DNA from: Escherichia coli | GTDB lineage: Bacteria > Pseudomonadota > Gammaproteobacteria > Enterobacterales > Enterobacteriaceae | Assembly (NCBI RefSeq): GCF_046105845.1 | Contig: NZ_CP151004.1 | DNA: 64,000 nt | Direction: 5' to 3' (one strand) | In this document: piece by piece, positions 21,998 through 60,805 of the stretch | Layout: each line of letters starts with the position of its first letter | Position numbering within the stretch: position 1 is the stretch's first letter | Notes under the pieces: model-generated | Seen by the model: the letters and a program-made list of their open reading frames with translations, nothing else | The model's database searches: none | Told to the model about the DNA's origin: nothing | Program-made: the position numbers and the translations under genes

Positions 21998-22846
21998 ATG
22001 AAACTCTTTGCCCAGGGTACTTCACTGGACCTTAGCCATCCTCACGTAATGGGGATCCTCAACGTCACGCCTGATTCCTTTTCGGATGGTGGCACGCATA
22101 ACTCGCTGATAGATGCGGTGAAACATGCGAATCTGATGATCAACGCTGGCGCGACGATCATTGACGTTGGTGGCGAGTCCACACGTCCAGGGGCGGCGGA
22201 AGTTAGCGTTGAAGAAGAGTTACAACGTGTTATTCCTGTGGTTGAGGCAATTGCTCAACGCTTCGAAGTCTGGATCTCGGTAGATACATCCAAACCAGAA
22301 GTCATCCGTGAGTCAGCGAAAGTTGGCGCTCACATTATTAACGATATCCGCTCCCTTTCCGAACCTGGCGCTCTGGAGGCGGCTGCAGAAACCGGTTTAC
22401 CGGTTTGTCTGATGCATATGCAGGGAAATCCAAAAACTATGCAGGAAGCCCCGAAGTATGACGATGTCTTTGCAGAAGTGAATCGCTACTTTATTGAGCA
22501 AATAGCACGTTGCGAGCAGGCGGGTATCGCAAAAGAGAAATTGTTGCTCGACCCCGGATTCGGTTTCGGTAAAAATCTCTCCCATAACTATTCATTACTG
22601 GCGCGCCTGGCTGAATTTCACCATTTCAACCTGCCGCTGTTGGTGGGTATGTCACGAAAATCGATGATTGGGCAGCTGCTGAACGTGGGGCCGTCCGAGC
22701 GCCTGAGCGGTAGTCTGGCCTGTGCGGTCATTGCCGCAATGCAAGGCGCGCACATCATTCGTGTTCATGACGTCAAAGAAACCGTAGAAGCGATGCGGGT
22801 GGTGGAAGCCACTCTGTCTGCAAAGGAAAACAAACGCTATGAGTAA
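21998..22846 (+). CDS. folP: Dihydropteroate synthase, 282 aa
   Basis: ORF 21932..22846; conserved start [32 protein letters not shown] at ATG 21998. Confidence 0.93.
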
Positions 22847-24176
22847 TCGTAAATATTTCGGTACCGATGGGATTCGTGGTCGTGTAGGGGATGCGCCGAT
22901 CACACCTGATTTTGTGCTTAAGCTGGGTTGGGCCGCGGGTAAAGTGTTGGCGCGCCACGGCTCCCGTAAGATCATTATTGGTAAAGACACGCGTATTTCT
23001 GGCTATATGCTGGAGTCAGCACTGGAAGCGGGTCTGGCGGCTGCCGGTCTTTCCGCGCTCTTCACTGGCCCGATGCCAACACCGGCCGTGGCTTATCTGA
23101 CGCGGACTTTCCGCGCAGAGGCTGGGATTGTGATATCTGCATCGCATAACCCGTTCTACGATAATGGCATTAAATTTTTCTCTATCGACGGCACCAAACT
23201 GCCGGATGCAGTTGAAGAGGCCATCGAAGCGGAAATGGAAAAAGAGATCAGCTGCGTTGATTCGGCAGAACTGGGTAAAGCCAGCCGTATCGTTGATGCT
23301 GCGGGTCGCTATATCGAGTTTTGCAAAGCCACGTTCCCGAACGAACTTAGCCTCAGTGAACTGAAGATTGTGGTGGATTGTGCAAACGGTGCGACTTATC
23401 ACATCGCGCCGAACGTGCTGCGTGAACTGGGGGCGAACGTTATCGCTATCGGTTGTGAGCCGAACGGTGTAAACATCAATGCCGAAGTGGGGGCTACCGA
23501 CGTTCGCGCTCTCCAGGCTCGTGTGCTGGCTGAAAAAGCGGATCTCGGTATTGCCTTCGACGGCGACGGCGATCGCGTGATTATGGTTGACCATGAAGGC
23601 AATAAAGTCGATGGCGATCAGATCATGTATATCATCGCGCGTGAAGGTCTTCGTCAGGGCCAGCTGCGTGGTGGCGCTGTGGGTACATTGATGAGCAACA
23701 TGGGGCTTGAACTGGCGCTGAAACAGTTAGGAATTCCATTTGCGCGCGCGAAAGTGGGTGACCGCTACGTACTGGAAAAAATGCAGGAGAAAGGCTGGCG
23801 TATCGGTGCAGAGAATTCCGGTCATGTGATCCTGCTGGATAAAACCACTACCGGTGACGGCATCGTTGCTGGCTTGCAGGTGCTGGCGGCGATGGCACGT
23901 AACCATATGAGCCTGCACGACCTTTGCAGCGGCATGAAAATGTTCCCGCAGATTCTGGTTAACGTGCGTTACACCGCAGGTAGCGGCGATCCGCTTGAGC
24001 ATGAGTCAGTTAAAGCCGTGACCGCAGAGGTTGAAGCTGCGCTGGGCAACCGTGGACGCGTTTTGCTGCGTAAATCTGGCACCGAGCCGTTAATTCGCGT
24101 GATGGTAGAAGGTGAAGACGAAGCGCAGGTAACTGAATTTGCACACCGTATCGCCGATGCAGTAAAAGCCGTTTAA
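22839..24176 (+). CDS. glmM: Phosphoglucosamine mutase, 445 aa
   Basis: [34 protein letters not shown]; active-site SASHNP; start overlaps the folP stop. Confidence 0.96.
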
Positions 24177-24403: not shown

Positions 24404-24736
24404 ATGTACGAAGCTCTTTTGGTAGTTTTCCTTATTGTGGCAATTGGCCTTGTTGGTCTGATCATGCTGCAGCAAGGTAAAGGCGCTGATATGGGAGCCT
24501 CCTTCGGAGCAGGCGCTTCCGCTACGCTGTTTGGTTCAAGTGGTTCTGGTAACTTCATGACCCGCATGACGGCGCTGCTGGCAACGTTATTCTTCATCAT
24601 CAGTCTGGTGCTGGGTAACATCAATAGCAACAAAACCAATAAAGGTAGCGAATGGGAAAACCTGAGTGCGCCGGCCAAAACCGAACAAACTCAGCCAGCT
24701 GCTCCGGCTAAGCCGACCAGCGATATCCCGAACTAA
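24404..24736 (+). CDS. secG: Protein translocase subunit SecG, 110 aa
   Basis: ORF 24356..24736; conserved start MYEALLVVFLIVAIGLVGLIMLQQGKGADMGASFGAG at ATG 24404. Confidence 0.93.
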   Translation: MYEALLVVFLIVAIGLVGLIMLQQGKGADMGASFGAGASATLFGSSGSGNFMTRMTALLATLFFIISLVLGNINSNKTNKGSEWENLSAPAKTEQTQPAAPAKPTSDIPN

Positions 24737-24750
24737 AAAGTAGTATCCGT

Positions 24751-24837
24751 GCCGAGGTGGTGGAATTGGTAGACACGCTACCTTGAGGTGGTAGTGCCCA
24801 ATAGGGCTTACGGGTTCAAGTCCCGTCCTCGGTACCA
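24751..24837 (+). tRNA. leuU: tRNA-Leu (GAG anticodon), 87 nt with encoded CCA
   Basis: gccgaggtggtggaattggtagacacgctaccttgaggtggtagtgcccaatagggcttacgggttcaagtcccgtcctcggtacca: long variable arm, T-loop GTTCAAGTC. Confidence 0.95.
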
Positions 24838-24845
24838 AATTCCAG

Positions 24846-24876
24846 AAAAGAGACGCTGAAAAGCGTCTTTTTTCGT
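24846..24876 (+). terminator. Rho-independent terminator after leuU
   Basis: aaaagagacgctgaaaagcgtcttttttcg. Confidence 0.8.
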
Positions 24877-25293
24877 TTTGGTCCTGGTCTGAGGAATGGT
24901 TGTCAGGTATCTGTATCTCGTCCAGTTGCTTTACTCGTAGCTGGTACTTTGAAACGATGGTGCCGGTACGCCTTAGTTATAAACTTTTCCCTTCTGCTGA
25001 CATAATTGGCACTTTATTGTGTCAACTCCAGTTCCGGTACGAATACGGATATGTTTACTTCTCGATAAACCATCCTGCTCCTGTCAGTATAACTACTGAT
25101 GGCTACGTTCTGCGTAATGTTTAGAGACGCATTGATAATGTTATTTAATTACTGAGAACAATGGCCGCATCATTTAAAAAGAAAAAACTAACAGTGTTTC
25201 GGTCTGATATGGATCAGAGTTGAAAAACATGTCTGATATAAAATTGAACATTGTTGATAATTGTTTATATTGGTTGTGAACTTGGATTTCTGG

Positions 25294-26919
25294 ATGACAG
25301 TATTCAACAAATTTGTTAGAAGTTTTAAATCTCATTGGTTGTTGTATCTTTGTGTTATTGTTTTTGGTATTACGAACTTAGTCGCCTCTTCCGGAGCGCA
25401 TATGGTTCAGCGATTGCTGTTCTTCGTTCTGACCATCCTGGTTGTTAAACGTATATCATCCCTTCCGCTTCGCCTGCTTGTTGCCGCACCATTTGTGTTA
25501 CTGACAGCGGCAGACATGAGTATTAGCCTCTATTCATGGTGTACCTTTGGTACAACTTTCAATGATGGATTTGCGATTAGCGTGCTGCAGAGTGATCCGG
25601 ATGAAGTTGTCAAAATGCTGGGGATGTATATCCCTTATCTATGTGCTTTTGCCTTTTTATCCCTTCTTTTTTTTGCAGTAATAATAAAATATGATGTTTC
25701 CTTGCCGACGAAAAAAGTGACAGGAATATTATTGCTGATTGTCATTTCGGGCAGTTTATTTTCCGCTTGTCAATTTGCTTATAAAGATGCAAAAAATAAA
25801 AAAGCGTTCAGTCCATATATACTAGCGTCGCGATTTGCTACCTATACACCGTTTTTCAATCTCAATTATTTTGCTTTAGCAGCGAAAGAGCATCAAAGAT
25901 TACTCTCAATTGCAAACACGGTGCCGTATTTTCAATTATCAGTCAGGGATACAGGTATTGATACCTACGTGTTGATTGTGGGGGAGTCTGTACGTGTCGA
26001 CAATATGTCTTTGTATGGATATACACGCTCTACGACACCGCAAGTCGAAGCACAAAGAAAACAGATCAAACTGTTTAATCAAGCAATAAGCGGTGCACCT
26101 TACACTGCGCTGTCGGTTCCCCTTTCTTTAACTGCTGATTCTGTTTTGAGTCATGACATTCATAATTACCCGGACAACATTATTAATATGGCTAATCAAG
26201 CAGGATTTCAGACTTTCTGGCTAAGCTCGCAATCCGCTTTTCGGCAGAATGGTACAGCAGTTTCCAGTATCGCCATGCGCGCCATGGAAACAGTCTATGT
26301 CAGAGGATTTGATGAATTGTTGTTGCCGCATTTATCGCAAGCGTTACAGCAAAAGACGCAGCAAAAGAAATTGATTGTTCTTCATTTAAATGGAAGCCAT
26401 GAACCGGCTTGTAGCGCCTATCCGCAATCCAGCGCCGTGTTTCAACCGCAGGACGATCAGGATGCCTGCTATGACAACTCCATTCATTACACAGATAGTT
26501 TGCTAGGTCAGGTTTTTGAATTATTAAAAGATCGCCGCGCCTCGGTCATGTATTTTGCCGATCACGGCCTGGAACGCGACCCTACGAAGAAGAACGTCTA
26601 TTTTCATGGAGGCAGGGAGGCCAGCCAGCAGGCATATCATGTCCCGATGTTTATCTGGTATAGCCCCGTTCTTGGGGATGGCGTTGATCGTACAACGGAA
26701 AACGATATCTTTTCCACTGCGTACAATAATTACCTTATTAATGCGTGGATGGGGGTAACAAAGCCGGAACAGCCGCAAACGCTGGAGGAAGTGATTGCAC
26801 ACTATAAAGGAGACTCACGGGTTGTAGATGCAAACCATGATGTTTTCGATTTTGTGATGCTAAGAAAGGAGTTTACTGAGGATATGCAAGGTAACCCCAC
26901 CCCTGAAGGGCAGGGTTGA
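25294..26919 (+). CDS. yhbX: Putative phosphoethanolamine transferase (EptA/sulfatase-fold family), 541 aa
   Basis: ORF 25261..26919; likely start MTVFNKFVRSFKSHWLLYLCVIVFG at ATG 25294; N-terminal multi-TM region then sulfatase-like domain (VLIVGESVRVDNMSLYGYTR ... HLNGSHEPA); visibly AT-rich. Confidence 0.85.
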   Translation: MTVFNKFVRSFKSHWLLYLCVIVFGITNLVASSGAHMVQRLLFFVLTILVVKRISSLPLRLLVAAPFVLLTAADMSISLYSWCTFGTTFNDGFAISVLQSDPDEVVKMLGMYIPYLCAFAFLSLLFFAVIIKYDVSLPTKKVTGILLLIVISGSLFSACQFAYKDAKNKKAFSPYILASRFATYTPFFNLNYFALAAKEHQRLLSIANTVPYFQLSVRDTGIDTYVLIVGESVRVDNMSLYGYTRSTTPQVEAQRKQIKLFNQAISGAPYTALSVPLSLTADSVLSHDIHNYPDNIINMANQAGFQTFWLSSQSAFRQNGTAVSSIAMRAMETVYVRGFDELLLPHLSQALQQKTQQKKLIVLHLNGSHEPACSAYPQSSAVFQPQDDQDACYDNSIHYTDSLLGQVFELLKDRRASVMYFADHGLERDPTKKNVYFHGGREASQQAYHVPMFIWYSPVLGDGVDRTTENDIFSTAYNNYLINAWMGVTKPEQPQTLEEVIAHYKGDSRVVDANHDVFDFVMLRKEFTEDMQGNPTPEGQG

Positions 26920-26926
26920 TGTCGAA

Positions 26927-28285
<1,359 letters not shown>

Positions 28286-28617: not shown

Positions 28618-28694
<77 letters not shown>

Positions 28695-28816
28695 CTTTCC
28701 CTTAGAGTCCTTTTTCAAATATACTGTGAAGACTTCGGCCTTCGTAGTGGGATTTGAAAAAATCCTTCTGGAAAGTGCTCCAGACCGCAGTTGCGGTTAT
28801 AGGGTTCAGTTATATA

Positions 28817-28842
28817 AAGCCCCGATTTATCGGGGTTTTTTG
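28817..28842 (+). terminator. Intrinsic terminator/attenuator between metY and rimP
   Basis: aaagccccgatttatcggggttttttg; a second weaker hairpin gggctttaggcccttttttt at 28864-28883. Confidence 0.65.
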
Positions 28843-28900
28843 TTATCTGACTACAGAATAACTGGGCTTTAGGCCCTTTTTTTATGTCTTGGGGGTGGGC

Positions 28901-42401: not shown

Positions 42402-42932
42402 TCAAATAAACCCCTGTTTATTATAAAGTTCTTCAGCGAGAGCTTCCCCGTGCTCATCGAAAAAAGCATCGGCGATAGTTAAATTTTCTGCCTTAGGATT
42501 TGCCGTTATTTTGCTACCATTGGCATCAAATTCGAGCGCGATAGCGGTCTCCGAACCCCACCAGTAATAATAAATTAGCGCAAAATTATTTTCCCCTGGC
42601 GTAATAAACTTCTCGATTCCCCGCACACAGGCCATGAGTGGCATGAAGATTTCATAGCTCTCTGAGAGAAATATGTGATCCATCGTGACTATCTGTGTTT
42701 CTTTATTAAAGTTGATATGTTCGGCATAAATATTCTTTTCACTTTCACCAGAATTACAAGCTGCAAGATTGTTAAGCATTTTTGCAGGATCGCCGTACAA
42801 CCGCTGCTTCTCGATAAACCATGGCAACCAGTCGTCATGGTCTTTGATATTTGTTGCTGGTGAATGGAAAAACTTCTCGAGGTTACTCTCGGTAATATGT
42901 GCATGAAGAAAAAAGGAAGCCGGTTCACTCAT
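42402..42932 (-). CDS. Hypothetical acidic cytoplasmic protein, 176 aa, no recognizable family
   Basis: ATG at 42930-42932 (minus); MSEPASFFLHAHITESNLEKFFHSPATNIKDHDDW...IYYYWWGSETAIALEF; no signal peptide or TM segment; AT-rich; lies between mtr and yhbW, which I recall as adjacent in K-12. Confidence 0.6.
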   Translation of the reverse strand: MSEPASFFLHAHITESNLEKFFHSPATNIKDHDDWLPWFIEKQRLYGDPAKMLNNLAACNSGESEKNIYAEHINFNKETQIVTMDHIFLSESYEIFMPLMACVRGIEKFITPGENNFALIYYYWWGSETAIALEFDANGSKITANPKAENLTIADAFFDEHGEALAEELYNKQGFI

Positions 42933-55790: not shown

Positions 55791-56885
55791 TTACCTGACA
55801 ATAACCGTAATGGTAGCTGATGCTTTAAAAGGTCCGGTCGACAATACTCCACCGACCAGATTTACAGGATAAGCCTGAAAGTGTGTTGTTCCTGCTCCGG
55901 TTTTATCTAGCAGAATGATGCCTGGATTAAATGGAACATCTACTTGCCCTTTAGTCACATCCATAAGGCGGATACCAACATCAGGGACATCATCACTTTC
56001 ACGGCGTCTTGCGACTAAATTATATTGATTAACATAATCTGAACCTTCAATTTTCATATACAAGCTATTGTTAATTTGGGACATATCACCGCAATCATAG
56101 GTAATATCAAAGCTTACTGGAGTGTAACCTGTTGGCATCTGATTTTGTAGGGTGAAACGTTGAGCGCTAATAAATCCAAGATTTACATTAATGGTATCAC
56201 CTTGATTTATTTTGCAACTTTGAGGTACCGTAATTCGGCCTTGAATATAGATTTTAGCAATATCCTTAATGGGACGTGGTGCAGCAGAAGTACTTGTCCA
56301 CGCAGCCTGGACTGAAGCAATATGTGTTTCAGGGATATTCAGTTCACCCAAAAATGGCGTAGTGACGTATAGTGTAATCGTTGTATTTTTACCAATAGAA
56401 AAGTCTGATCCCCGAACATTGGCTGGGTCGGCCATGCACACACTATTGTTTTTGTTAGCATGGTAAGTACCAGTACCGTCTCTAAGCGGTGTATATGAAT
56501 TGCTTGGAACCATAACAGATGGATTACCAGGAATGTCGTTTATTTGGGTTTTAATATCCAGATTAGAATTCAGTCGATAGAAATCTCGTTCTTTACCTTG
56601 AGTTATTAATGCAGATGTTACTGTATAATACAGGTTAACTTTACTACCTGCCGGACAAGAGCAGTTTAAGGTGTAATTGCTCCCAATAGCTGAATTCTTT
56701 ACCACATAATCTTTGCCGGCAACATTATTATCTTGTGTCCAGTCCTCAGAAGCATCTGTCCGAAATTCACCTGTTCCTTCACAATCACCTGTTGCTGCCT
56801 TTACCGATGGGCTAAGTAACAGGGGGGAGACCACGGCAGCAATAGACAATAGTTGTTTAATCATTTTGAAACTCCCTAAAGACAC
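55791..56885 (-). CDS. yraK: Putative fimbrial adhesin/tip protein of the yra chaperone-usher operon
   Basis: MSLGSFKMIKQLLSIAAVVSPLLLSPSVKAATGDCEGTGEF (signal peptide; start could be the internal MIKQ); last gene of the usher operon. Confidence 0.85.
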   Translation of the reverse strand: MSLGSFKMIKQLLSIAAVVSPLLLSPSVKAATGDCEGTGEFRTDASEDWTQDNNVAGKDYVVKNSAIGSNYTLNCSCPAGSKVNLYYTVTSALITQGKERDFYRLNSNLDIKTQINDIPGNPSVMVPSNSYTPLRDGTGTYHANKNNSVCMADPANVRGSDFSIGKNTTITLYVTTPFLGELNIPETHIASVQAAWTSTSAAPRPIKDIAKIYIQGRITVPQSCKINQGDTINVNLGFISAQRFTLQNQMPTGYTPVSFDITYDCGDMSQINNSLYMKIEGSDYVNQYNLVARRRESDDVPDVGIRLMDVTKGQVDVPFNPGIILLDKTGAGTTHFQAYPVNLVGGVLSTGPFKASATITVIVR

Positions 56886-59398
56886 TTTGCCGAATCACGA
56901 ATAATGGGGGTAGTGATGTTCGCGCTATCGTTCAGACTAAACGTAAACTGGCATTGTTGGTTTATTCCACTTCCCCAGCGAACCTTCCAGGTTTGTGGTT
57001 TTTTATTAATGCCGGAGAGATAAATAACTCCAGCTTCATCGACAATACTTTGTTGGAATTGGCCTTCATTACTGGCAACAGCACCAAAAGGAATGGGCTT
57101 ACCTTGGACGTCAGTTAGTGCTAATAGCACTCTGTGACCGGTTTGGGCATTAAAATTTGCAACGACAGCGGCGCCCTGTCCTGGCACGACAATCTTTGCA
57201 GTCTCCTGGACATCTACATTATCCGGCATTGTAGTAGTGTCTAAGGCAATACGATTTTCCTGATAAGCCGTTAAATAAGGGATGACGGCGTAACCAAAGT
57301 AATCGGTGGCAATACCAGGGTAATTTTTAACCCGAATATTAGATGCACCCTGGGTATCAATTACGGCAAATGTATTACCCAGCGGTTGTGAGAGAGTCAC
57401 CCCATGGGGGTGTGCGACAATTCCACCTGAAAGACCATAGCTGAACTGGCGACTGTTTGACGTGTAATCATAGTTGGCGTTAACAGTGCCATAAGCAGAG
57501 CGGTAACTACCAGAAAGCGTACTGCCGTTATTATTATTTTCCTGGTCCATTCGTTGTTTAAAGCTGTAACTTAATCGGTTGTCATCAAGGAAAGAACCGG
57601 TAATGCCAGTCTCATATTGAGTTGAACGGTATTTTTCATCAGTGACACGAAACGTAGCTTGTGCATTAGGTAACCAACGATCCAGAGGCAGACTAATACT
57701 AAAAAAGATTGCCCTATCACTATCGCGATCGGAATAATCTGTGAATTGTCCACTCACGCTGTAGCTGATGCCGGCAAGATAGCCGTTCAGTCCGGCAGAA
57801 TAATTGCGATCATTTTGTTCTGCTCCCCAGTATTCTCGTTGTGCACCTGAAATATAAAAACTGAGATTATCAGTCAGCGTTTGGTTAACGTTGAAAATCG
57901 CTTCGCTGCGTTGGCGATTGTTTACATTAATATCACGTTGGTTTGCGTCGGCAAAGGTAAAAAAAACTGAGTTGGAATAGCGCGAGTAACTAAGAGAAAG
58001 GCTTGTTCCTGTTTCGGGTATATCTTTAATATATTGAAAACGTAAACCTTCCCCGGTAAATTTTTCTTTATTTTCTAACTTCGTTTTGGCATAAGTTAAA
58101 TCAACGGAAAGTGCGCCCAAAATACTCAATGTGCTACCGATGCCTAATGCTGCTGCTTGATAATCCTTGGATCCAGTTACCCCACCATAAAGAGTGAAAA
58201 TATTAGTAAGGCCGTAAAATGCTGTGCCTTCGATGAACTCTGGTTCTTTACTATTAGATGACGGGTCTGCACGAAATCGCCCTGCTGTCATGCTATATAA
58301 AAGATGGCCTGGCCGTTGCATAACAGGAAGTGCTGAAAACGGCTGAGTAAATTGGCGAACGGTACCATCGGCTTCTTCAATTGTAACGTCTAAATCACCG
58401 CTAAATGAGGATGGATAGAGATCGTTGATTTCGAATGCTCCCGCCGGGACATTGCTTTGATAAATTGTATAGCCATTCTGGCGGATGGTGACTATTGCGC
58501 TGGTATTGGCAATCCCACGGATAATCGGTGCAAAACCTCGTAAGCTATTCGGTAACATGTTCTCGTCAGAATAAATTCTGGCACCCGTAAACTGAACGCT
58601 GGAAAAAATTGTGCCATCAGTGGCGCTTTCACCAAGCACTAATTGCGACTTTAAACTCTTAATATCACGCTGCAACCAACTATTAATACTATCCCAGCGA
58701 GTCTCATTACTGCTATGTGTCCACGTGGAGTAATTACGCAACCGCCATGGGCCGATATTGACTCCATTTTGCATATTGAGATAAAACCTTTCATTCTTTT
58801 CGCTGTTACTATAATAACTGTTCGAGCCACTAAAACTGTAATTGGTAAACAATACTGGAATACCATGATCCCACCTGGCGGGATCAACATAACCAGAAGG
58901 GTCACGCCGCAGGGCAATTTGTGGAATGTCCAGGATGAGAGTGCTATGGTTGAGGTCTATCTTTGTTTTGCTTCCAGGTACGGTTTTGGATAAATCTGTT
59001 ATCAGGGCGTTGTCATCAAGAGTATTTAGTGAATTTATTTCGTCAACTTTAAAACCCAATTCGCGTAAAAGACCAACGGTAAGCTGTGGGCGAATTTCTC
59101 CATTATCATCTATAGCAAAAGTGATTTTTCTCTGAGTCACCTTTTTTTTATTGATAACGATCTCAACATCATAATCACCGGGACTATGAGTATTTTTACC
59201 GGAGAAAGCAGATAAATCGCTTGCCTTTTGACCACTCTTTGTTGTTTCCAGCAATGAGGGATCAAAATAGTAATTGTCAGCAATGGCATGAAGAGGGGAC
59301 AGAACTCCACCAGTAATAAGAACAGGTAATACTGTTTTTAACCAGCAGGAAAGTGGTTTCATAACAGGTAAAGAGATGCATTTTATTTTGGTTTTCAT
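56876..59398 (-). CDS. yraJ: Fimbrial outer-membrane usher protein, 840 aa
   Basis: MKTKIKCISLPVMKPLSCWLKTVLPVLITGGVLSPLHAIADNYYFDPSLLE; usher-size beta-barrel protein; C-terminal Cys pair. Confidence 0.92.
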   Translation of the reverse strand: MKTKIKCISLPVMKPLSCWLKTVLPVLITGGVLSPLHAIADNYYFDPSLLETTKSGQKASDLSAFSGKNTHSPGDYDVEIVINKKKVTQRKITFAIDDNGEIRPQLTVGLLRELGFKVDEINSLNTLDDNALITDLSKTVPGSKTKIDLNHSTLILDIPQIALRRDPSGYVDPARWDHGIPVLFTNYSFSGSNSYYSNSEKNERFYLNMQNGVNIGPWRLRNYSTWTHSSNETRWDSINSWLQRDIKSLKSQLVLGESATDGTIFSSVQFTGARIYSDENMLPNSLRGFAPIIRGIANTSAIVTIRQNGYTIYQSNVPAGAFEINDLYPSSFSGDLDVTIEEADGTVRQFTQPFSALPVMQRPGHLLYSMTAGRFRADPSSNSKEPEFIEGTAFYGLTNIFTLYGGVTGSKDYQAAALGIGSTLSILGALSVDLTYAKTKLENKEKFTGEGLRFQYIKDIPETGTSLSLSYSRYSNSVFFTFADANQRDINVNNRQRSEAIFNVNQTLTDNLSFYISGAQREYWGAEQNDRNYSAGLNGYLAGISYSVSGQFTDYSDRDSDRAIFFSISLPLDRWLPNAQATFRVTDEKYRSTQYETGITGSFLDDNRLSYSFKQRMDQENNNNGSTLSGSYRSAYGTVNANYDYTSNSRQFSYGLSGGIVAHPHGVTLSQPLGNTFAVIDTQGASNIRVKNYPGIATDYFGYAVIPYLTAYQENRIALDTTTMPDNVDVQETAKIVVPGQGAAVVANFNAQTGHRVLLALTDVQGKPIPFGAVASNEGQFQQSIVDEAGVIYLSGINKKPQTWKVRWGSGINQQCQFTFSLNDSANITTPIIRDSAKCL

Positions 59399-59450
59399 TA
59401 TTCCCTTATTTCCTTATTCCCTGTCATATGTATAAGTTTTGTATAAATAA

Positions 59451-60143
59451 TTATGGCAAAGTAGATGTATATGTATCCGTATTACCGCCATAGTCATTAA
59501 TGGCTGCCCATTTCACGATGTTTTCTGAAACTAATGGCAATGGTAATTGCTTATGTTCACCCGGTGCAATAAATTCTATTTTATCGGTAAAGTCGGTTTT
59601 TCCTACAGCCAGTCCTGAAAAAACAACGTAATATGCCGAAGGATTATATATCTCCAGTTGGTTGTTCTTCCTTGAGAATTTTAGGCCTTTATAGGCATCT
59701 GAAGGTCTACCGTCCATTTCTGATGGTCTGTAAAAGAGTTTAATGCGTGTTTTAAATACTAAAGTAAGTAGGTTCTTATCTTGCGTTTCTTTTTTATCGA
59801 CAGCAGGAATTGCACGGACGTTAATATAAAAAAGTGATTCTTTATCTCTCGGTAGATTGCCATCGGTTTTAATGATACGCAATGAAGAGTTGTCTCCGGC
59901 ATCAAGACGAAATAGCGGAGGGGTAATAATAAAAGGGCCGCGAGAAGAGTCATAGATATTTTCAACCCACGATTGTAATAAATATGGTGGTTTATCACTT
60001 CGATTAGTGACCGGCAATGCAGCTTCTTTTTTACTACCATCATAAACTACACGCGTTCTTTCCAGAAGGATTCCACCAGCCAGACTCTGGTTCACCCAGC
60101 CAGCTAATAGAAAAAGTATTGCAAACGATTTTTTAATCTTCAT
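59451..60143 (-). CDS. yraI: PapD-like periplasmic fimbrial chaperone, 230 aa
   Basis: [62 protein letters not shown]. Confidence 0.92.
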
Positions 60144-60232
60144 CTTCTGTTACCGCTACGAAATAAAATTGTCTCTTTAACAGCAGACCGCTAAAGAGAC
60201 AAAATAAAGGATTATGAACTAATGACTAGTTA

Positions 60233-60805
60233 TCAACGATAATCAAGAGTTACATCCACAGTAGCATTAGCTTCACCGGGTTTGATTTTATCGGCTGTTG
60301 TGGTTGACACATAGTAAGCCGCTAAATCTAAATTCATCGTGGAACCAGTAATTGGGAAAGATATCTTTGGAACACTAAGTTTGTTAATTGCCATAGGTGT
60401 TTGAGCATCTTTTTCAATCCGAATACCAACACCTGTAGCCGCGGTATCTGGGTCCATACTTGTAACAGCAACTAACTCATTGTTATCACCGGTAGTTGCT
60501 CCGTTACGCGTTTCCAGCCATAACTGGAAAGACGCATCTTTAGTACCATCAATGTGATCCCAGGCTACCGTTGGGCAGTTTTTCAACGGAATAGTGAAAG
60601 GGATCGTAGGGGATTTATCCCCTTTAAACTTAAACTGATTAGCGGCATAGTGACCTAATTCAACATAAACTGTATCACCATTCGCAAATTCACAGACAGT
60701 GCCAAGAATTTCACCCGTGAATTCAATTTTTCCATCGGTTGCGGAGGCGCTACCGGCAAAAAGCGCCAGCAGGCCAGCGGCAACTGTCTTAGCTACTTTA
60801 CTCAT
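60233..60805 (-). CDS. yraH: Fimbrial major subunit (pilin), 190 aa
   Basis: MSKVAKTVAAGLLALFAGSASATDGKIEFTGEILGTVCEF (signal peptide, conserved Cys pair); first gene of the usher operon. Confidence 0.9.
   Translation of the reverse strand: MSKVAKTVAAGLLALFAGSASATDGKIEFTGEILGTVCEFANGDTVYVELGHYAANQFKFKGDKSPTIPFTIPLKNCPTVAWDHIDGTKDASFQLWLETRNGATTGDNNELVAVTSMDPDTAATGVGIRIEKDAQTPMAINKLSVPKISFPITGSTMNLDLAAYYVSTTTADKIKPGEANATVDVTLDYR

What the first reader, a model, noticed from the sequence alone, without database searches (positions are those of the whole stretch)
25294..26919. yhbX: low-GC EptA-family paralog wedged between tRNA-Leu and argG
The gene is visibly AT-rich against its high-GC neighbours and lies just downstream of leuU, with a 400-bp AT-rich leader (24877-25293), a classic signature of an old tRNA-adjacent acquisition. 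The product has an N-terminal multi-TM domain plus a sulfatase-fold domain like phosphoethanolamine transferases, but its substrate is, as far as I know, uncharacterised.
Basis: partly seen in the sequence, partly recalled or inferred. Interest (0 to 1): 0.4.

Follow-up and report, generated by a model that had tools for sequence, protein, structure and literature searches.

The report
yhbX: swappable envelope-enzyme cassette beside leuU
This is the known but still uncharacterised E. coli gene yhbX, an intact membrane enzyme of the phosphoethanolamine-transferase type; it is one of several alternative foreign cassettes that occupy the same small slot between a leucine tRNA gene and argG.

Summary
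The window is E. coli, and 25294-26919 is yhbX (541 aa). Its GC is 0.430 and GC3 0.421, against 0.53-0.54 and 0.55-0.59 for its neighbours. A 414-bp leader (GC 0.386) lies between the leuU terminator and the gene.

The protein has the full architecture of a phosphoethanolamine transferase: five membrane helices plus a periplasmic sulfatase-fold domain. The AlphaFold2 model has pLDDT 93 and best matches full-length N. meningitidis EptA (NmEptA) and MCR-1. The catalytic Thr271 and metal ligands E231, D423 and H424 are present. It falls below the curated cut-off of every named family (EptA, EptB, CptA, MCR) and forms its own narrow, patchily distributed subfamily.

New here is that leader plus gene (24880-26926) behaves as an exchangeable cassette:
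- 5178 of 5426 complete E. coli genomes carry it.
- 237 carry an unrelated helix-turn-helix (HTH) gene with the same breakpoints.
- 9 carry the E. fergusonii yhbX (69% aa identity, synonymous sites saturated while the flanks are near-identical).

Some Salmonella and Citrobacter have the slot empty. A third lineage (about 65% identity) sits next to a P4-type integrase in a tRNA-Phe island in 455 genomes, and on one plasmid. The acceptor substrate is still unknown. The gene itself is already known, so interest is modest.

The parts
24751..24837 (+). leuU, tRNA-Leu(GAG); conserved left anchor of the slot, not part of the cassette
   Evidence: ARAGORN and Rfam tRNA, 52.8 bits. The sequence is identical in Salmonella, Citrobacter, Edwardsiella and Hafnia loci.
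24845..24878 (+). Intrinsic terminator of secG-leuU, terminator-like on both strands; its T-run marks the left breakpoint of the cassette
   Evidence: Terminator scan on both strands. Homology with the HTH-allele strains and with E. fergusonii stops at 24879/24880.
24880..25293 (+). AT-rich leader (414 bp, GC 0.386), part of the cassette and presumably holding the yhbX promoter
   Evidence: GC. Two overlapping sigma-70-like matches span 25233-25271, but the count is not above shuffles. No Rfam family matches. Variation among E. coli alleles is similar to the coding sequence: 24 of 462 aligned columns vary. No similarity to the E. fergusonii leader or to the region upstream of the island copy. 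A genomic SELEX peak for a minor sigma factor is reported in the yhbX-leuU spacer (PMC5493296).
25294..26919 (+). yhbX coding sequence, 541 aa: inner-membrane transferase of the phosphoethanolamine-transferase superfamily, YhbX subfamily
25294..25803 (+). N-terminal membrane domain (residues 1-170): five TM helices plus a short periplasmic helix. Includes invariant Glu104 (25603-25605).
   Evidence: Hydropathy segments. AF2 helices at 15-31, 34-52, 57-85, 102-131 and 140-167, plus 91-98. E104 is invariant in 52 sequences. Full-length Foldseek matches to 5fgn and 9nww.
25804..25959 (+). Bridging helices linking the membrane and catalytic domains (residues 171-222)
   Evidence: AF2 helices 174-183 and 190-206.
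25960..26886 (+). Periplasmic sulfatase/alkaline-phosphatase-fold catalytic domain (residues 223-531). Holds E231 (25984-25986), T271 (26104-26106), H369 (26398-26400), D423 and H424 (26560-26565) and H449 (26638-26640).
   Evidence: Pfam PF00884. Residue-by-residue alignment to NmEptA, E. coli EptC and C. jejuni EptC. Invariance among the paralogs and in 52 subfamily members. Codon coordinates.
26887..26916 (+). E. coli-specific C-terminal tail of 10 residues (QGNPTPEGQG). It reads through a GC-rich hairpin (26895-26915) that lies after the stop codon in E. fergusonii.
   Evidence: Alignments of the cassette right ends and of the three proteins. pLDDT is below 50 for residues 537-541. The hairpin appears in the RNA fold; coordinates.
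26920..26926 (.). 7-bp spacer between the convergent yhbX and argG stop codons. No intrinsic terminator for either gene lies here. This is the right breakpoint of the cassette.
   Evidence: Salmonella and Citrobacter empty slots, and the HTH allele, keep a hairpin next to the argG stop.
26927..28270 (-). argG, the conserved right anchor of the slot. Its last few codons differ between the yhbX-type and HTH-type strains.

Best explanation
yhbX encodes a functional inner-membrane transferase of the phosphoethanolamine-transferase superfamily. It belongs to a distinct subfamily (YhbX), not to EptA, EptB, EptC/CptA, OpgE or MCR.

Inferred mechanism, by homology with NmEptA and MCR-1:
- The five-helix membrane domain takes up phosphatidylethanolamine at the periplasmic leaflet.
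- Thr271, activated at a Zn site formed by Glu231, Asp423 and His424 with His369 and His449 nearby, attacks the phosphate. This releases diacylglycerol and leaves a phosphoethanolamine-Thr intermediate.
- The phosphoethanolamine is then passed to a periplasm-exposed acceptor. That acceptor is unknown. It is most likely an envelope glycan rather than the lipid A phosphates.

The gene sits in a 2047-bp horizontally acquired single-gene cassette (leader plus gene, 24880-26926). The cassette fills a variable slot between the leuU terminator and the argG stop codon. It is now exchanged by homologous recombination in the conserved flanks, not by site-specific integration.

Shown here: architecture, catalytic residues, purifying selection, cassette boundaries, alternative alleles, and outgroup states. 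Inferred: chemistry, donor lipid and class of acceptor.
For: Enzyme class:
- Pfam Sulfatase, E 2.3e-56. The best NCBIfam hit is the generic phosphoethanolamine-transferase domain model.
- Sequence matches to E. coli EptC (5zzu), NmEptA (5fgn) and MCR-1. E231, T271, H369, D423, H424 and H449 align to the NmEptA motifs GETTR, STAHS, GSHGP, DHGE and THIP.
- E231, T271, H369, D423 and H424 are invariant in all five E. coli paralogs. E104, E231, T271 and H369 are invariant, and D423 and H424 at least 90% conserved, in 52 subfamily sequences.
- The AF2 model has pLDDT 93.2 and pTM 0.92. Its top Foldseek hits are full-length NmEptA (TM-score 0.62/0.63, E 4e-20), E. coli EptC (TM-score 0.76-0.77 normalised to the target) and full-length MCR-1.

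Functional maintenance:
- 5166 of the 5178 cassette-bearing genomes have it essentially full length.
- dN/dS is 0.146 among six alleles.
- No variable residue among five of those alleles falls on a catalytic position.

Foreign cassette:
- Composition.
- Breakpoints at 24879/24880 and at the argG stop are shared with the HTH allele.
- Slot census in complete E. coli genomes: 5178 yhbX, 237 HTH, 9 E. fergusonii-type.
- The slot is empty in S. enterica diarizonae, C. amalonaticus and Citrobacter MGH106.
- E. coli versus E. fergusonii: yhbX pS 0.744 and 69% aa identity, against flank dS 0.04-0.33 and 99-100% aa identity.
- The nearest non-Escherichia relatives are only 34-48% identical and scattered: Buttiauxella, Pectobacterium, Mixta, Microvirgula, Proteus, Providencia.
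Against: - No biochemical or genetic evidence for activity or acceptor exists in the papers searched.
- Pfam does not detect the EptA_B_N membrane-domain family, so the membrane domain is supported only by hydropathy and the predicted fold.
- Constraint is 15-35 times weaker than on the housekeeping neighbours: dN/dS 0.146 against 0.010 and 0.004.
- 4.4% of E. coli genomes do without the gene.
- The AT-rich leader, the weak promoter matches and the lack of a terminator before convergent argG suggest low or conditional expression.
- Related sulfatase-fold membrane enzymes also use a Thr nucleophile but transfer phosphoglycerol (LtaS, OpgB). The headgroup is therefore inferred, not shown.
Confidence: 0.78

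Rival explanations
1. yhbX is a silent or decaying remnant of foreign DNA with no present function.
For: Low GC and low codon adaptation. Only weak promoter matches. 237 genomes lack it, and a few carry IS1 insertions (H36 and H49). The locus is used as a neutral insertion site (PMC12421378; bioRxiv 10.1101/2023.02.03.527047). The C-terminal tail arose by read-through into a hairpin.
Against: The ORF is full length in 5166 of 5178 carriers. dN/dS is 0.146, not near 1. All catalytic residues are kept in three lineages that are saturated at synonymous sites. The model is confident and well packed. Two knockout screens report phenotypes (PMC4551910; PMC9765716).
Confidence: 0.08
2. It is a hydrolase (sulfatase or phosphatase), or it transfers a headgroup other than phosphoethanolamine, such as phosphoglycerol as LtaS and OpgB do. 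This matches the older annotation 'predicted hydrolase, inner membrane'.
For: The only Pfam hit is the generic Sulfatase family. LtaS-type (LtaP), YejM/PbgA and true sulfatases also appear in the fold search (ranks 23-50). Some sources name it arylsulfatase or hydrolase.
Against: The nucleophile motif is PYTALSVP with Thr, not the Cys/Ser-x-Pro-x-Arg motif of formylglycine sulfatases (sequence). Phosphoethanolamine transferases outrank LtaS-type and sulfatase structures by 8-10 orders of magnitude in E-value, and only they match across both domains with TM-score 0.62. Glu104 in the periplasmic part of the membrane domain is invariant. From memory, it corresponds to a conserved Glu of NmEptA implicated in binding the ethanolamine amine.
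Confidence: 0.1
3. yhbX is an ancient vertically inherited resident of the locus. Its odd composition merely reflects a membrane protein rich in Phe, Ile, Leu and Lys.
For: GC rises along the gene from the membrane domain to the soluble domain: 0.387, 0.440, 0.477. The gene is nearly universal in E. coli and sits in the same place in E. fergusonii.
Against: GC3, which is largely independent of amino-acid content, is also low (0.421), and the four paralogs of the same architecture have GC3 0.56-0.61. Salmonella and Citrobacter slots are empty. Synonymous sites between the E. coli and E. fergusonii copies are saturated while the flanks are not. The leaders are unrelated.
Confidence: 0.03
4. The cassette is the last remnant of a classical integrase-mediated island that integrated at leuU. 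Integrase and att sites have since been lost.
For: A sister lineage about 65% identical lies directly next to a P4-type integrase in a low-GC island at tRNA-Phe in 455 genomes. K-12 has leuX-intB-yjgX with the same layout, though yjgX belongs to another subfamily. PMC6174562 reports YjgX- or YhbX-like transferases in all pheU, pheV and selC islands it analysed. Other genera carry larger cargo downstream of leuU.
Against: There is no integrase and no repeat of the tRNA 3' end. The breakpoint lies after the terminator, outside the tRNA. Gene orientation relative to the tRNA is the opposite of that in the islands. All three Escherichia alleles share the same breakpoints, which fits exchange through the flanks.
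Confidence: 0.25

Closest known systems
EptC/CptA (E. coli YijP; adds phosphoethanolamine to phosphorylated heptose I of the LPS core) and OpgE (YbiP; adds phosphoethanolamine to osmoregulated periplasmic glucans)
   Same: Five-TM plus periplasmic sulfatase-fold architecture, the Thr nucleophile, and the Glu/Asp/His metal site. These are the best-scoring characterised relatives: OpgE 124 bits and EptC 110 bits, with the top PDB sequence hit 5zzu. All are stand-alone genes.
   Different: Only 24-29% identity. The NCBIfam CptA models score 141 and 123 bits against cut-offs of 404 and 900. YhbX forms a separate clade in the neighbour-joining tree. The acceptor is unknown. yhbX is low-GC, lies in a variable slot, and is absent from Salmonella LT2 (PMC4013655) and from the Salmonella and Citrobacter loci examined.
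EptA/PmrC, N. meningitidis EptA and MCR-1 (lipid A phosphoethanolamine transferases)
   Same: The fold matches over the full length (TM-score 0.62-0.63 to 5fgn and 9nww), and the catalytic residues align one to one.
   Different: 18-20% identity in the structural alignments. NCBIfam EptA and MCR scores are 32-123 bits against cut-offs of 561-1250. YhbX has two Cys in the catalytic domain (C373, C392) rather than the five disulfides described for EptA (PMC10285318).
Proteus mirabilis PMI3040 and similar uncharacterised transferases (Buttiauxella, Mixta, Microvirgula, Providencia)
   Same: They belong to the same subfamily, at 34-48% identity over nearly the full length (PMC4013655 reports 33% identity and 94% coverage for PMI3040). 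They are single genes without conserved neighbours.
   Different: None has a known function either. Their genomic contexts are all different, and none of the three loci examined (Buttiauxella, Mixta, Proteus) is the leuU-argG slot.
Lpt-O/Opt of Shigella flexneri (plasmid-borne phosphoethanolamine transferase that modifies O-antigen rhamnose and converts serotype)
   Same: A mobile phosphoethanolamine transferase with a sulfatase domain that acts on a surface glycan (PMC3458804). It sets a precedent for the island- and plasmid-borne YhbX-like copies.
   Different: It was not compared directly with YhbX here. The paper reports only 31-38% identity between Lpt-O and E. coli sulfatase-domain proteins. 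No O-antigen role has been shown for YhbX.
Variable chromosomal slots exchanged through conserved flanks (in the manner of the O-antigen locus between galF and gnd)
   Same: Conserved flanking genes, low-GC cargo, alternative non-homologous or deeply diverged alleles, and transfer between species. The comparison with the O-antigen locus rests on general knowledge.
   Different: The slot holds a single gene. One allele dominates at 95%. No phenotype is linked to the alleles.

Membership tests
[quoted passage not shown] | C-terminal periplasmic sulfatase/alkaline-phosphatase-fold domain | tested here: met
   Pfam PF00884, E 2.3e-56, residues 224-466. Foldseek TM-score 0.70-0.77 (normalised to the target) against the EptC, EptA and MCR catalytic domains.
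[quoted passage not shown] | N-terminal domain of five TM helices with periplasmic and bridging helices | tested here: met
   Hydropathy, AF2 helices, and full-length matches to 5fgn and 9nww. Caveat: Pfam PF08019 (EptA_B_N) gave no hit.
[quoted passage not shown] | Catalytic Thr nucleophile | tested here: met
   T271 aligns with the Thr of the NmEptA motif STAHS. It is invariant in the five paralogs and in 52 subfamily sequences.
[quoted passage not shown] | Zn ligands Glu, Asp and His, plus accessory His residues | tested here: met
   E231, D423, H424, H369 and H449 align to the NmEptA motifs and are conserved.
[quoted passage not shown] | Transfer of phosphoethanolamine from phosphatidylethanolamine to an envelope acceptor | not testable with these tools
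   Needs mass spectrometry or enzymology. No report was found in the papers searched.
EptA (lipid A phosphoethanolamine transferase, NCBIfam equivalogs NF008619 and NF007160) | Score at or above the curated whole-protein cut-off | tested here: not met
   93.6 bits against 660, and 122.6 against 561.
EptB (Kdo phosphoethanolamine transferase, NF008593) | Score at or above the curated cut-off | tested here: not met
   104.5 bits against 493.
CptA/EptC (heptose phosphoethanolamine transferase, NF007933 and NF012179) | Score at or above the curated cut-off | tested here: not met
   141 bits against 404, and 122.6 against 900.
MCR-1 to MCR-13 (mobile colistin resistance) | Score at or above the curated cut-off | tested here: not met
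   31-71 bits against cut-offs of 1075-1250.
OpgE (phosphoethanolamine transferase of periplasmic glucans) | Orthology with E. coli OpgE | tested here: not met
   29% identity over 308 aa, 124 bits. OpgE lies outside the YhbX clade, and both genes coexist in K-12.
Formylglycine (type I) sulfatases | Cys/Ser-x-Pro-x-Arg motif at the nucleophile position | tested here: not met
   The sequence at the nucleophile is A-P-Y-T271-A-L-S-V-P. Sulfatases rank far below the transferases in the fold search.
Classical tRNA-integrated genomic island | Integrase gene next to the tRNA | tested here: not met
   The only ORFs of 60 aa or more between leuU and argG are yhbX, two ORFs overlapping it, and one unsupported 74-aa ORF in the leader. 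The RefSeq annotation lists only yhbX there.
Classical tRNA-integrated genomic island | Direct repeat of the tRNA 3' end (attL/attR) bounding the insert | tested here: not met
   No such repeat in 24700-27100. The left boundary lies after the terminator, 42 bp beyond the tRNA.
Classical tRNA-integrated genomic island | Atypical composition and variable presence among relatives | tested here: met
Excludon (convergent genes with overlapping transcripts) | Overlapping antisense transcription between argG and yhbX | not testable with these tools
   The argG-yhbX pair is listed by ExcludonFinder from RNA-seq (PMC12288877). Consistent with this, the stops are 7 bp apart and no terminator lies between them. 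No transcript data were examined here.

The most novel reading that the evidence does not exclude
The YhbX subfamily may be a set of mobile surface-decorating enzymes. They would add phosphoethanolamine to an exposed envelope glycan that serves as a phage receptor or immune target, as Lpt-O does in Shigella. E. coli would keep anciently diverged specificities, plus a null (HTH) allele, at the leuU-argG slot through frequency-dependent selection. A further lineage would travel as integrase-proximal cargo of P4-type tRNA islands and on plasmids. The chromosomal yhbX would then be a domesticated receptor-masking or serotype-modifying gene, possibly switched off by antisense read-through from argG.
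Probability: 0.2. Interest if true: 0.6.

Novelty: already known. Interest (0 to 1): 0.33.

Why it matters
yhbX is the one intact member of E. coli's phosphoethanolamine-transferase set with no assigned acceptor. The others shape polymyxin and defensin resistance, LPS core charge and periplasmic glucans. Knowing what YhbX decorates would complete the map of phosphoethanolamine modifications in the model organism.

The comparative picture found here gives concrete handles for finding that acceptor:
- a precisely bounded cassette;
- three deeply diverged alleles with intact catalytic sites;
- natural null strains that carry an HTH gene instead;
- a sister lineage carried by integrase-bearing islands and a plasmid.

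It also suggests that the target is under the kind of selection that acts on surface structures. In practical terms, the locus is widely used as a 'neutral' insertion site, and users should know that it is convergent with argG with no terminator in between.

Tried and rejected
1. The first scan of genome contigs with YhbX peptide patterns returned no confirmed relative. I used the second scan for the leuU sequence instead. It returned only 16 loci and not E. coli itself, so that collection is clearly sampled incompletely. Absence from it means little.
2. Rfam found nothing in the leader, only the two tRNAs and the rimP leader.
3. PADLOC gave no defence-system hit for YhbX and only marginal HTH hits for the alternative gene.
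4. I searched for att-like direct repeats or flanking inverted repeats and found only short chance-level matches.
5. The 74-aa ORF in the leader (24900-25124) shows no similarity to the 65-aa hydrophobic ORF that precedes the island and plasmid copies. I treat it as spurious.
6. K-12 yjgX, next to leuX-intB, was considered as a sister of yhbX. It is only about 30% identical and belongs to a different subfamily.
7. Gene neighbourhoods of distant subfamily members (Buttiauxella, Mixta, Proteus) were checked for a conserved partner that might reveal the acceptor. There is none.
8. Fragment clusters at 68-99% identity in the representative search were checked as possible alleles from other Escherichia species. 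They are unnamed fragments and were uninformative.
9. Literature searches for yhbX and b3173 found no functional study.
10. The status of E. albertii, E. marmotae and E. ruysiae could not be established with the available collections.
Full report
**What is there.** The window is Escherichia coli, not K-12 (about 97.8% identical to MG1655 across this stretch). The local order is glmM (22839-24176), secG, leuU tRNA-Leu(GAG) (24751-24837), the leuU terminator (24845-24878), a 414-bp spacer, a 541-codon ORF at 25294-26919, and convergent argG at 26927-28270. Then come metY (tRNA-Met) and the rimP leader. RefSeq annotates the ORF as 'yhbX: phosphoethanolamine transferase (family protein)'.

**The composition claim is correct and not a chance effect.**
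- yhbX has GC 0.430 and GC3 0.421. glmM has 0.540/0.547 and argG 0.530/0.589. The GC3 deficit is 5.9-7.9 binomial SD.
- The leader has GC 0.386 and the whole 2047-bp unit 0.421.
- In the 64-kb window only this unit and a fimbrial cluster are this AT-rich.
- The codon-adaptation index relative to the window is 5th lowest of 50 genes.
- Membrane-protein amino-acid content does not explain it. The four K-12 paralogs with the same architecture (eptA, eptB, eptC, opgE) have GC 0.48-0.50 and GC3 0.56-0.61.

**The protein.**
- Pfam finds only the Sulfatase domain, at residues 224-466 (E 2.3e-56).
- NCBIfam gives hits to the generic phosphoethanolamine-transferase model and to the CptA, EptA, EptB and MCR models. 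Every one is far below its curated cut-off. The protein is therefore in the superfamily but in none of the named families.
- Sequence search of the PDB finds E. coli EptC, N. meningitidis EptA (NmEptA), C. jejuni EptC and MCR-1. The printed alignments place E231, T271, H369, D423/H424 and H449 opposite the NmEptA motifs that carry the zinc ligands and the Thr nucleophile.
- E231, T271, H369, D423 and H424 are invariant among the five E. coli paralogs. In a 52-sequence alignment, E104, E231, T271 and H369 are invariant, and D423 and H424 are at least 90% conserved.
- An AlphaFold2 model built on that alignment is confident (pLDDT 93.2, pTM 0.92). It shows five long membrane helices, a short periplasmic helix, two bridging helices and an alpha/beta domain. 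Only the last few residues are disordered.
- Foldseek against the PDB ranks full-length NmEptA first (TM-score 0.62/0.63). The E. coli EptC periplasmic domain and the full-length MCR-1 cryo-EM structure follow. LtaS-type enzymes, YejM and true sulfatases come 8-10 orders of magnitude lower in E-value.
- The nucleophile motif (PYTALSVP) is not a formylglycine-sulfatase motif.

**Is it maintained?**
- Of 5178 complete E. coli genomes with the cassette, 5166 have it essentially full length. A few carry IS1 insertions.
- Among six alleles, dN/dS is 0.146. That is clear purifying selection, but much weaker than on glmM (0.010) or argG (0.004).
- The amino-acid positions that vary among five of those alleles avoid the catalytic residues. 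They concentrate in the membrane domain and the C-terminal subdomain.

**The slot.** The most informative result came from strains that lack yhbX.
- In 237 of 5426 complete genomes, the stretch between the leuU terminator and the argG stop holds an unrelated 317-aa helix-turn-helix (HTH) gene on the other strand, with GC 0.37.
- Alignment shows the switch occurs exactly at 24879/24880 and at the argG stop codon. The last argG codons also differ. The yhbX unit is thus a 2047-bp cassette, 24880-26926, leader included.
- E. fergusonii has a yhbX in the same place and orientation. It is only 69% identical in protein, with synonymous sites saturated (pS 0.744). The flanking ftsH, folP, glmM, secG, argG and rimP are 99-100% identical in protein, with dS 0.04-0.33. 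The leaders are unrelated beyond the same terminator breakpoint.
- Nine E. coli genomes carry this E. fergusonii-type cassette at 99.1% nucleotide identity.
- The census is 5178 + 237 + 9 = 5424 of the 5425 genomes that have the flanks. The two yhbX versions therefore diverged long before the species did, and cassettes move between species by recombination in the flanks.

**Outgroups.** A scan for the leuU sequence gave 16 loci, which I mapped with tblastn.
- S. enterica diarizonae, C. amalonaticus and Citrobacter sp. MGH106 have leuU, about 180-210 bp, then argG. That spacer holds what looks like a REP-like element and an argG-proximal hairpin, and there is no yhbX.
- Edwardsiella, Hafnia and Tenebrionibacter have secG-leuU-rimP with no argG at all.
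- Another C. amalonaticus strain has an MFS transporter and an enolase-family gene downstream of leuU. Intestinirhabdus alba has a fimbrial operon and an ABC exporter there.
- The HTH gene occupies the same slot in some Salmonella enterica and in C. koseri, at 71-73% identity. Its synonymous divergence is roughly twice that of argG. This is compatible with an old resident of the slot but does not prove it.

yhbX is thus one of several alternative fillings of a recurrently variable site. Its presence there is specific to Escherichia among the genomes seen.

**Where the family lives.**
- An exhaustive profile-free search of 1.84 billion representatives found only 118 with E of 1e-30 or better, and many of those are E. 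coli fragments.
- The nearest full-length relatives outside Escherichia are at 34-48% identity. They are scattered across Buttiauxella, Pectobacterium, Mixta, Microvirgula, Paludibacterium, Proteus and Providencia.
- In the three loci examined (Buttiauxella, Mixta, Proteus) the gene is a lone gene in a different neighbourhood each time.
- A neighbour-joining tree puts all of these in one clade, apart from OpgE, EptC, EptA and EptB.
- A third Escherichia lineage (P0319, 557 aa, about 64-66% identical to both slot alleles) sits directly beside a P4-type integrase in a low-GC island at tRNA-Phe, next to yqgA-speC. It is present at 80% coverage or more in 455 of 5426 genomes, and also on plasmid pRHB40-C01_2.
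- K-12 itself has leuX-intB-yjgX with the same layout, though yjgX belongs to another subfamily.
- One paper notes that all the pheU, pheV and selC islands it analysed carry 'YjgX or YhbX' transferases (PMC6174562).

Phosphoethanolamine-transferase genes are therefore habitual island cargo. That supports a foreign origin for yhbX, even though the leuU cassette has no integrase and no att repeats.

**Details of the right end.**
- The E. fergusonii and island proteins end about ten residues before the E. coli one.
- In E. fergusonii the stop is followed by a hairpin (CCCTGCCC...GGGCAGGG) and a 43-bp spacer before argG.
- In E. coli the reading frame continues through the remains of that hairpin (26895-26915) and stops 7 bp from the argG stop. 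This tail is the only low-confidence part of the model.
- No terminator-like site lies between the two genes. The next one on the argG strand is the bidirectional leuU terminator. That fits the RNA-seq-based listing of argG-yhbX as an excludon (PMC12288877).

**Function.**
- No paper in the library assigns one. PMC4013655 states that none has been established.
- Other papers use the flanking intergenic regions as neutral insertion sites.
- A knockout appeared in a sigma-54 bypass screen. Five of the six knockouts followed up there were discounted, some for envelope changes affecting the assay; the passage found does not say which (PMC4551910).
- A knockout also appeared in a drug-tolerance screen (PMC9765716).
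- A genomic SELEX study of minor sigma factors reports a weak peak in the yhbX-leuU spacer (PMC5493296).

By homology, the most likely mechanism is phosphoethanolamine transfer from phosphatidylethanolamine through a Thr271 intermediate to a periplasm-exposed acceptor. The acceptor cannot be inferred from gene context. Distance from EptA and MCR, and the nearer OpgE and EptC, point weakly to a glycan rather than the lipid A phosphates.

**Verdict.** The gene is a known y-gene of a known enzyme class, so the novelty rating is 'already known'. What this analysis adds is the exact cassette, its alternative alleles with deep divergence, the empty outgroup slots and the island- and plasmid-borne sister lineage. 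These give a testable, still speculative idea that the subfamily decorates a surface structure under diversifying selection.

Noticed in passing
L011 1534-2487 (E. coli AMSHJX01); L001 12613-13567; L038 and L040 4001-4960: A 317-319-aa protein with only a weak N-terminal HTH match fills the leuU-argG slot in 237 E. coli genomes, some Salmonella enterica and Citrobacter koseri (71-73% identity between genera). It belongs to a widespread, well-conserved family (52-73% identity across Photorhabdus, Pseudomonas, Serratia and Acinetobacter) with no known function.
   Followed up: partly
L029 1-11306 (E. coli GCA_946062095.1) and L030; plasmid L028: A low-GC (0.44) island at tRNA-Phe next to yqgA-speC. 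It carries a P4-type integrase, a YhbX-like transferase, a 65-aa hydrophobic ORF just upstream of that transferase, WYL-domain and H-NS-like proteins, an OmpW/opacity-type beta-barrel and a P4 cII-like gene. The same transferase plus small ORF also occur on plasmid pRHB40-C01_2.
   Followed up: partly
L012, L016, L020, L022, L023, L025 compared with window 26927-28270: In Edwardsiella, Hafnia, Tenebrionibacter and one MAG, secG-leuU is followed within about 350-450 bp by rimP, with no argG. argG itself therefore looks like an older insertion between leuU and the metY-rimP-nusA operon in the Escherichia/Salmonella/Citrobacter group.
   Followed up: no
L026 1396-10804 (Intestinirhabdus alba); L019 1-1978 (Citrobacter amalonaticus ku-bf3): Other cargo lies directly downstream of leuU. 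In one it is a DUF4822 gene, a chaperone-usher fimbrial operon and a C39-peptidase ABC exporter. In the other it is an MFS transporter and an enolase-superfamily gene.
   Followed up: partly
L003 2117-3976 (K-12) and L032 906-5292 (K-12): Two other K-12 phosphoethanolamine-transferase genes also lie beside tRNA genes. eptB is next to proK. The yjgX pseudogene lies beyond leuX, the intB integrase pseudogene and an IS2.
   Followed up: partly
window 55791-60805 (-): A second strongly AT-rich block (GC 0.38-0.44, GC3 0.29-0.37) is a chaperone-usher fimbrial operon: fimbrial subunit, PapD-like chaperone, usher, and a 357-aa protein with a C-terminal Fimbrial domain, possibly the adhesin.
   Followed up: partly
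window 42402-42932 (-): A 176-aa ORF with low GC (0.412, GC3 0.424) and no Pfam match.
   Followed up: no
window 28783-28883 (+): The Rfam rimP leader (RF01770, 102 bits) lies downstream of metY (tRNA-Met, 28618-28694), as expected for the metY-rimP-nusA-infB operon.
   Followed up: no
window 25294-26919: GC and GC3 rise steadily along yhbX from 5' to 3': GC 0.387, 0.440, 0.477 and GC3 0.36, 0.43, 0.49. This could reflect domain composition, or partial amelioration or recombination from the argG side.
   Followed up: no
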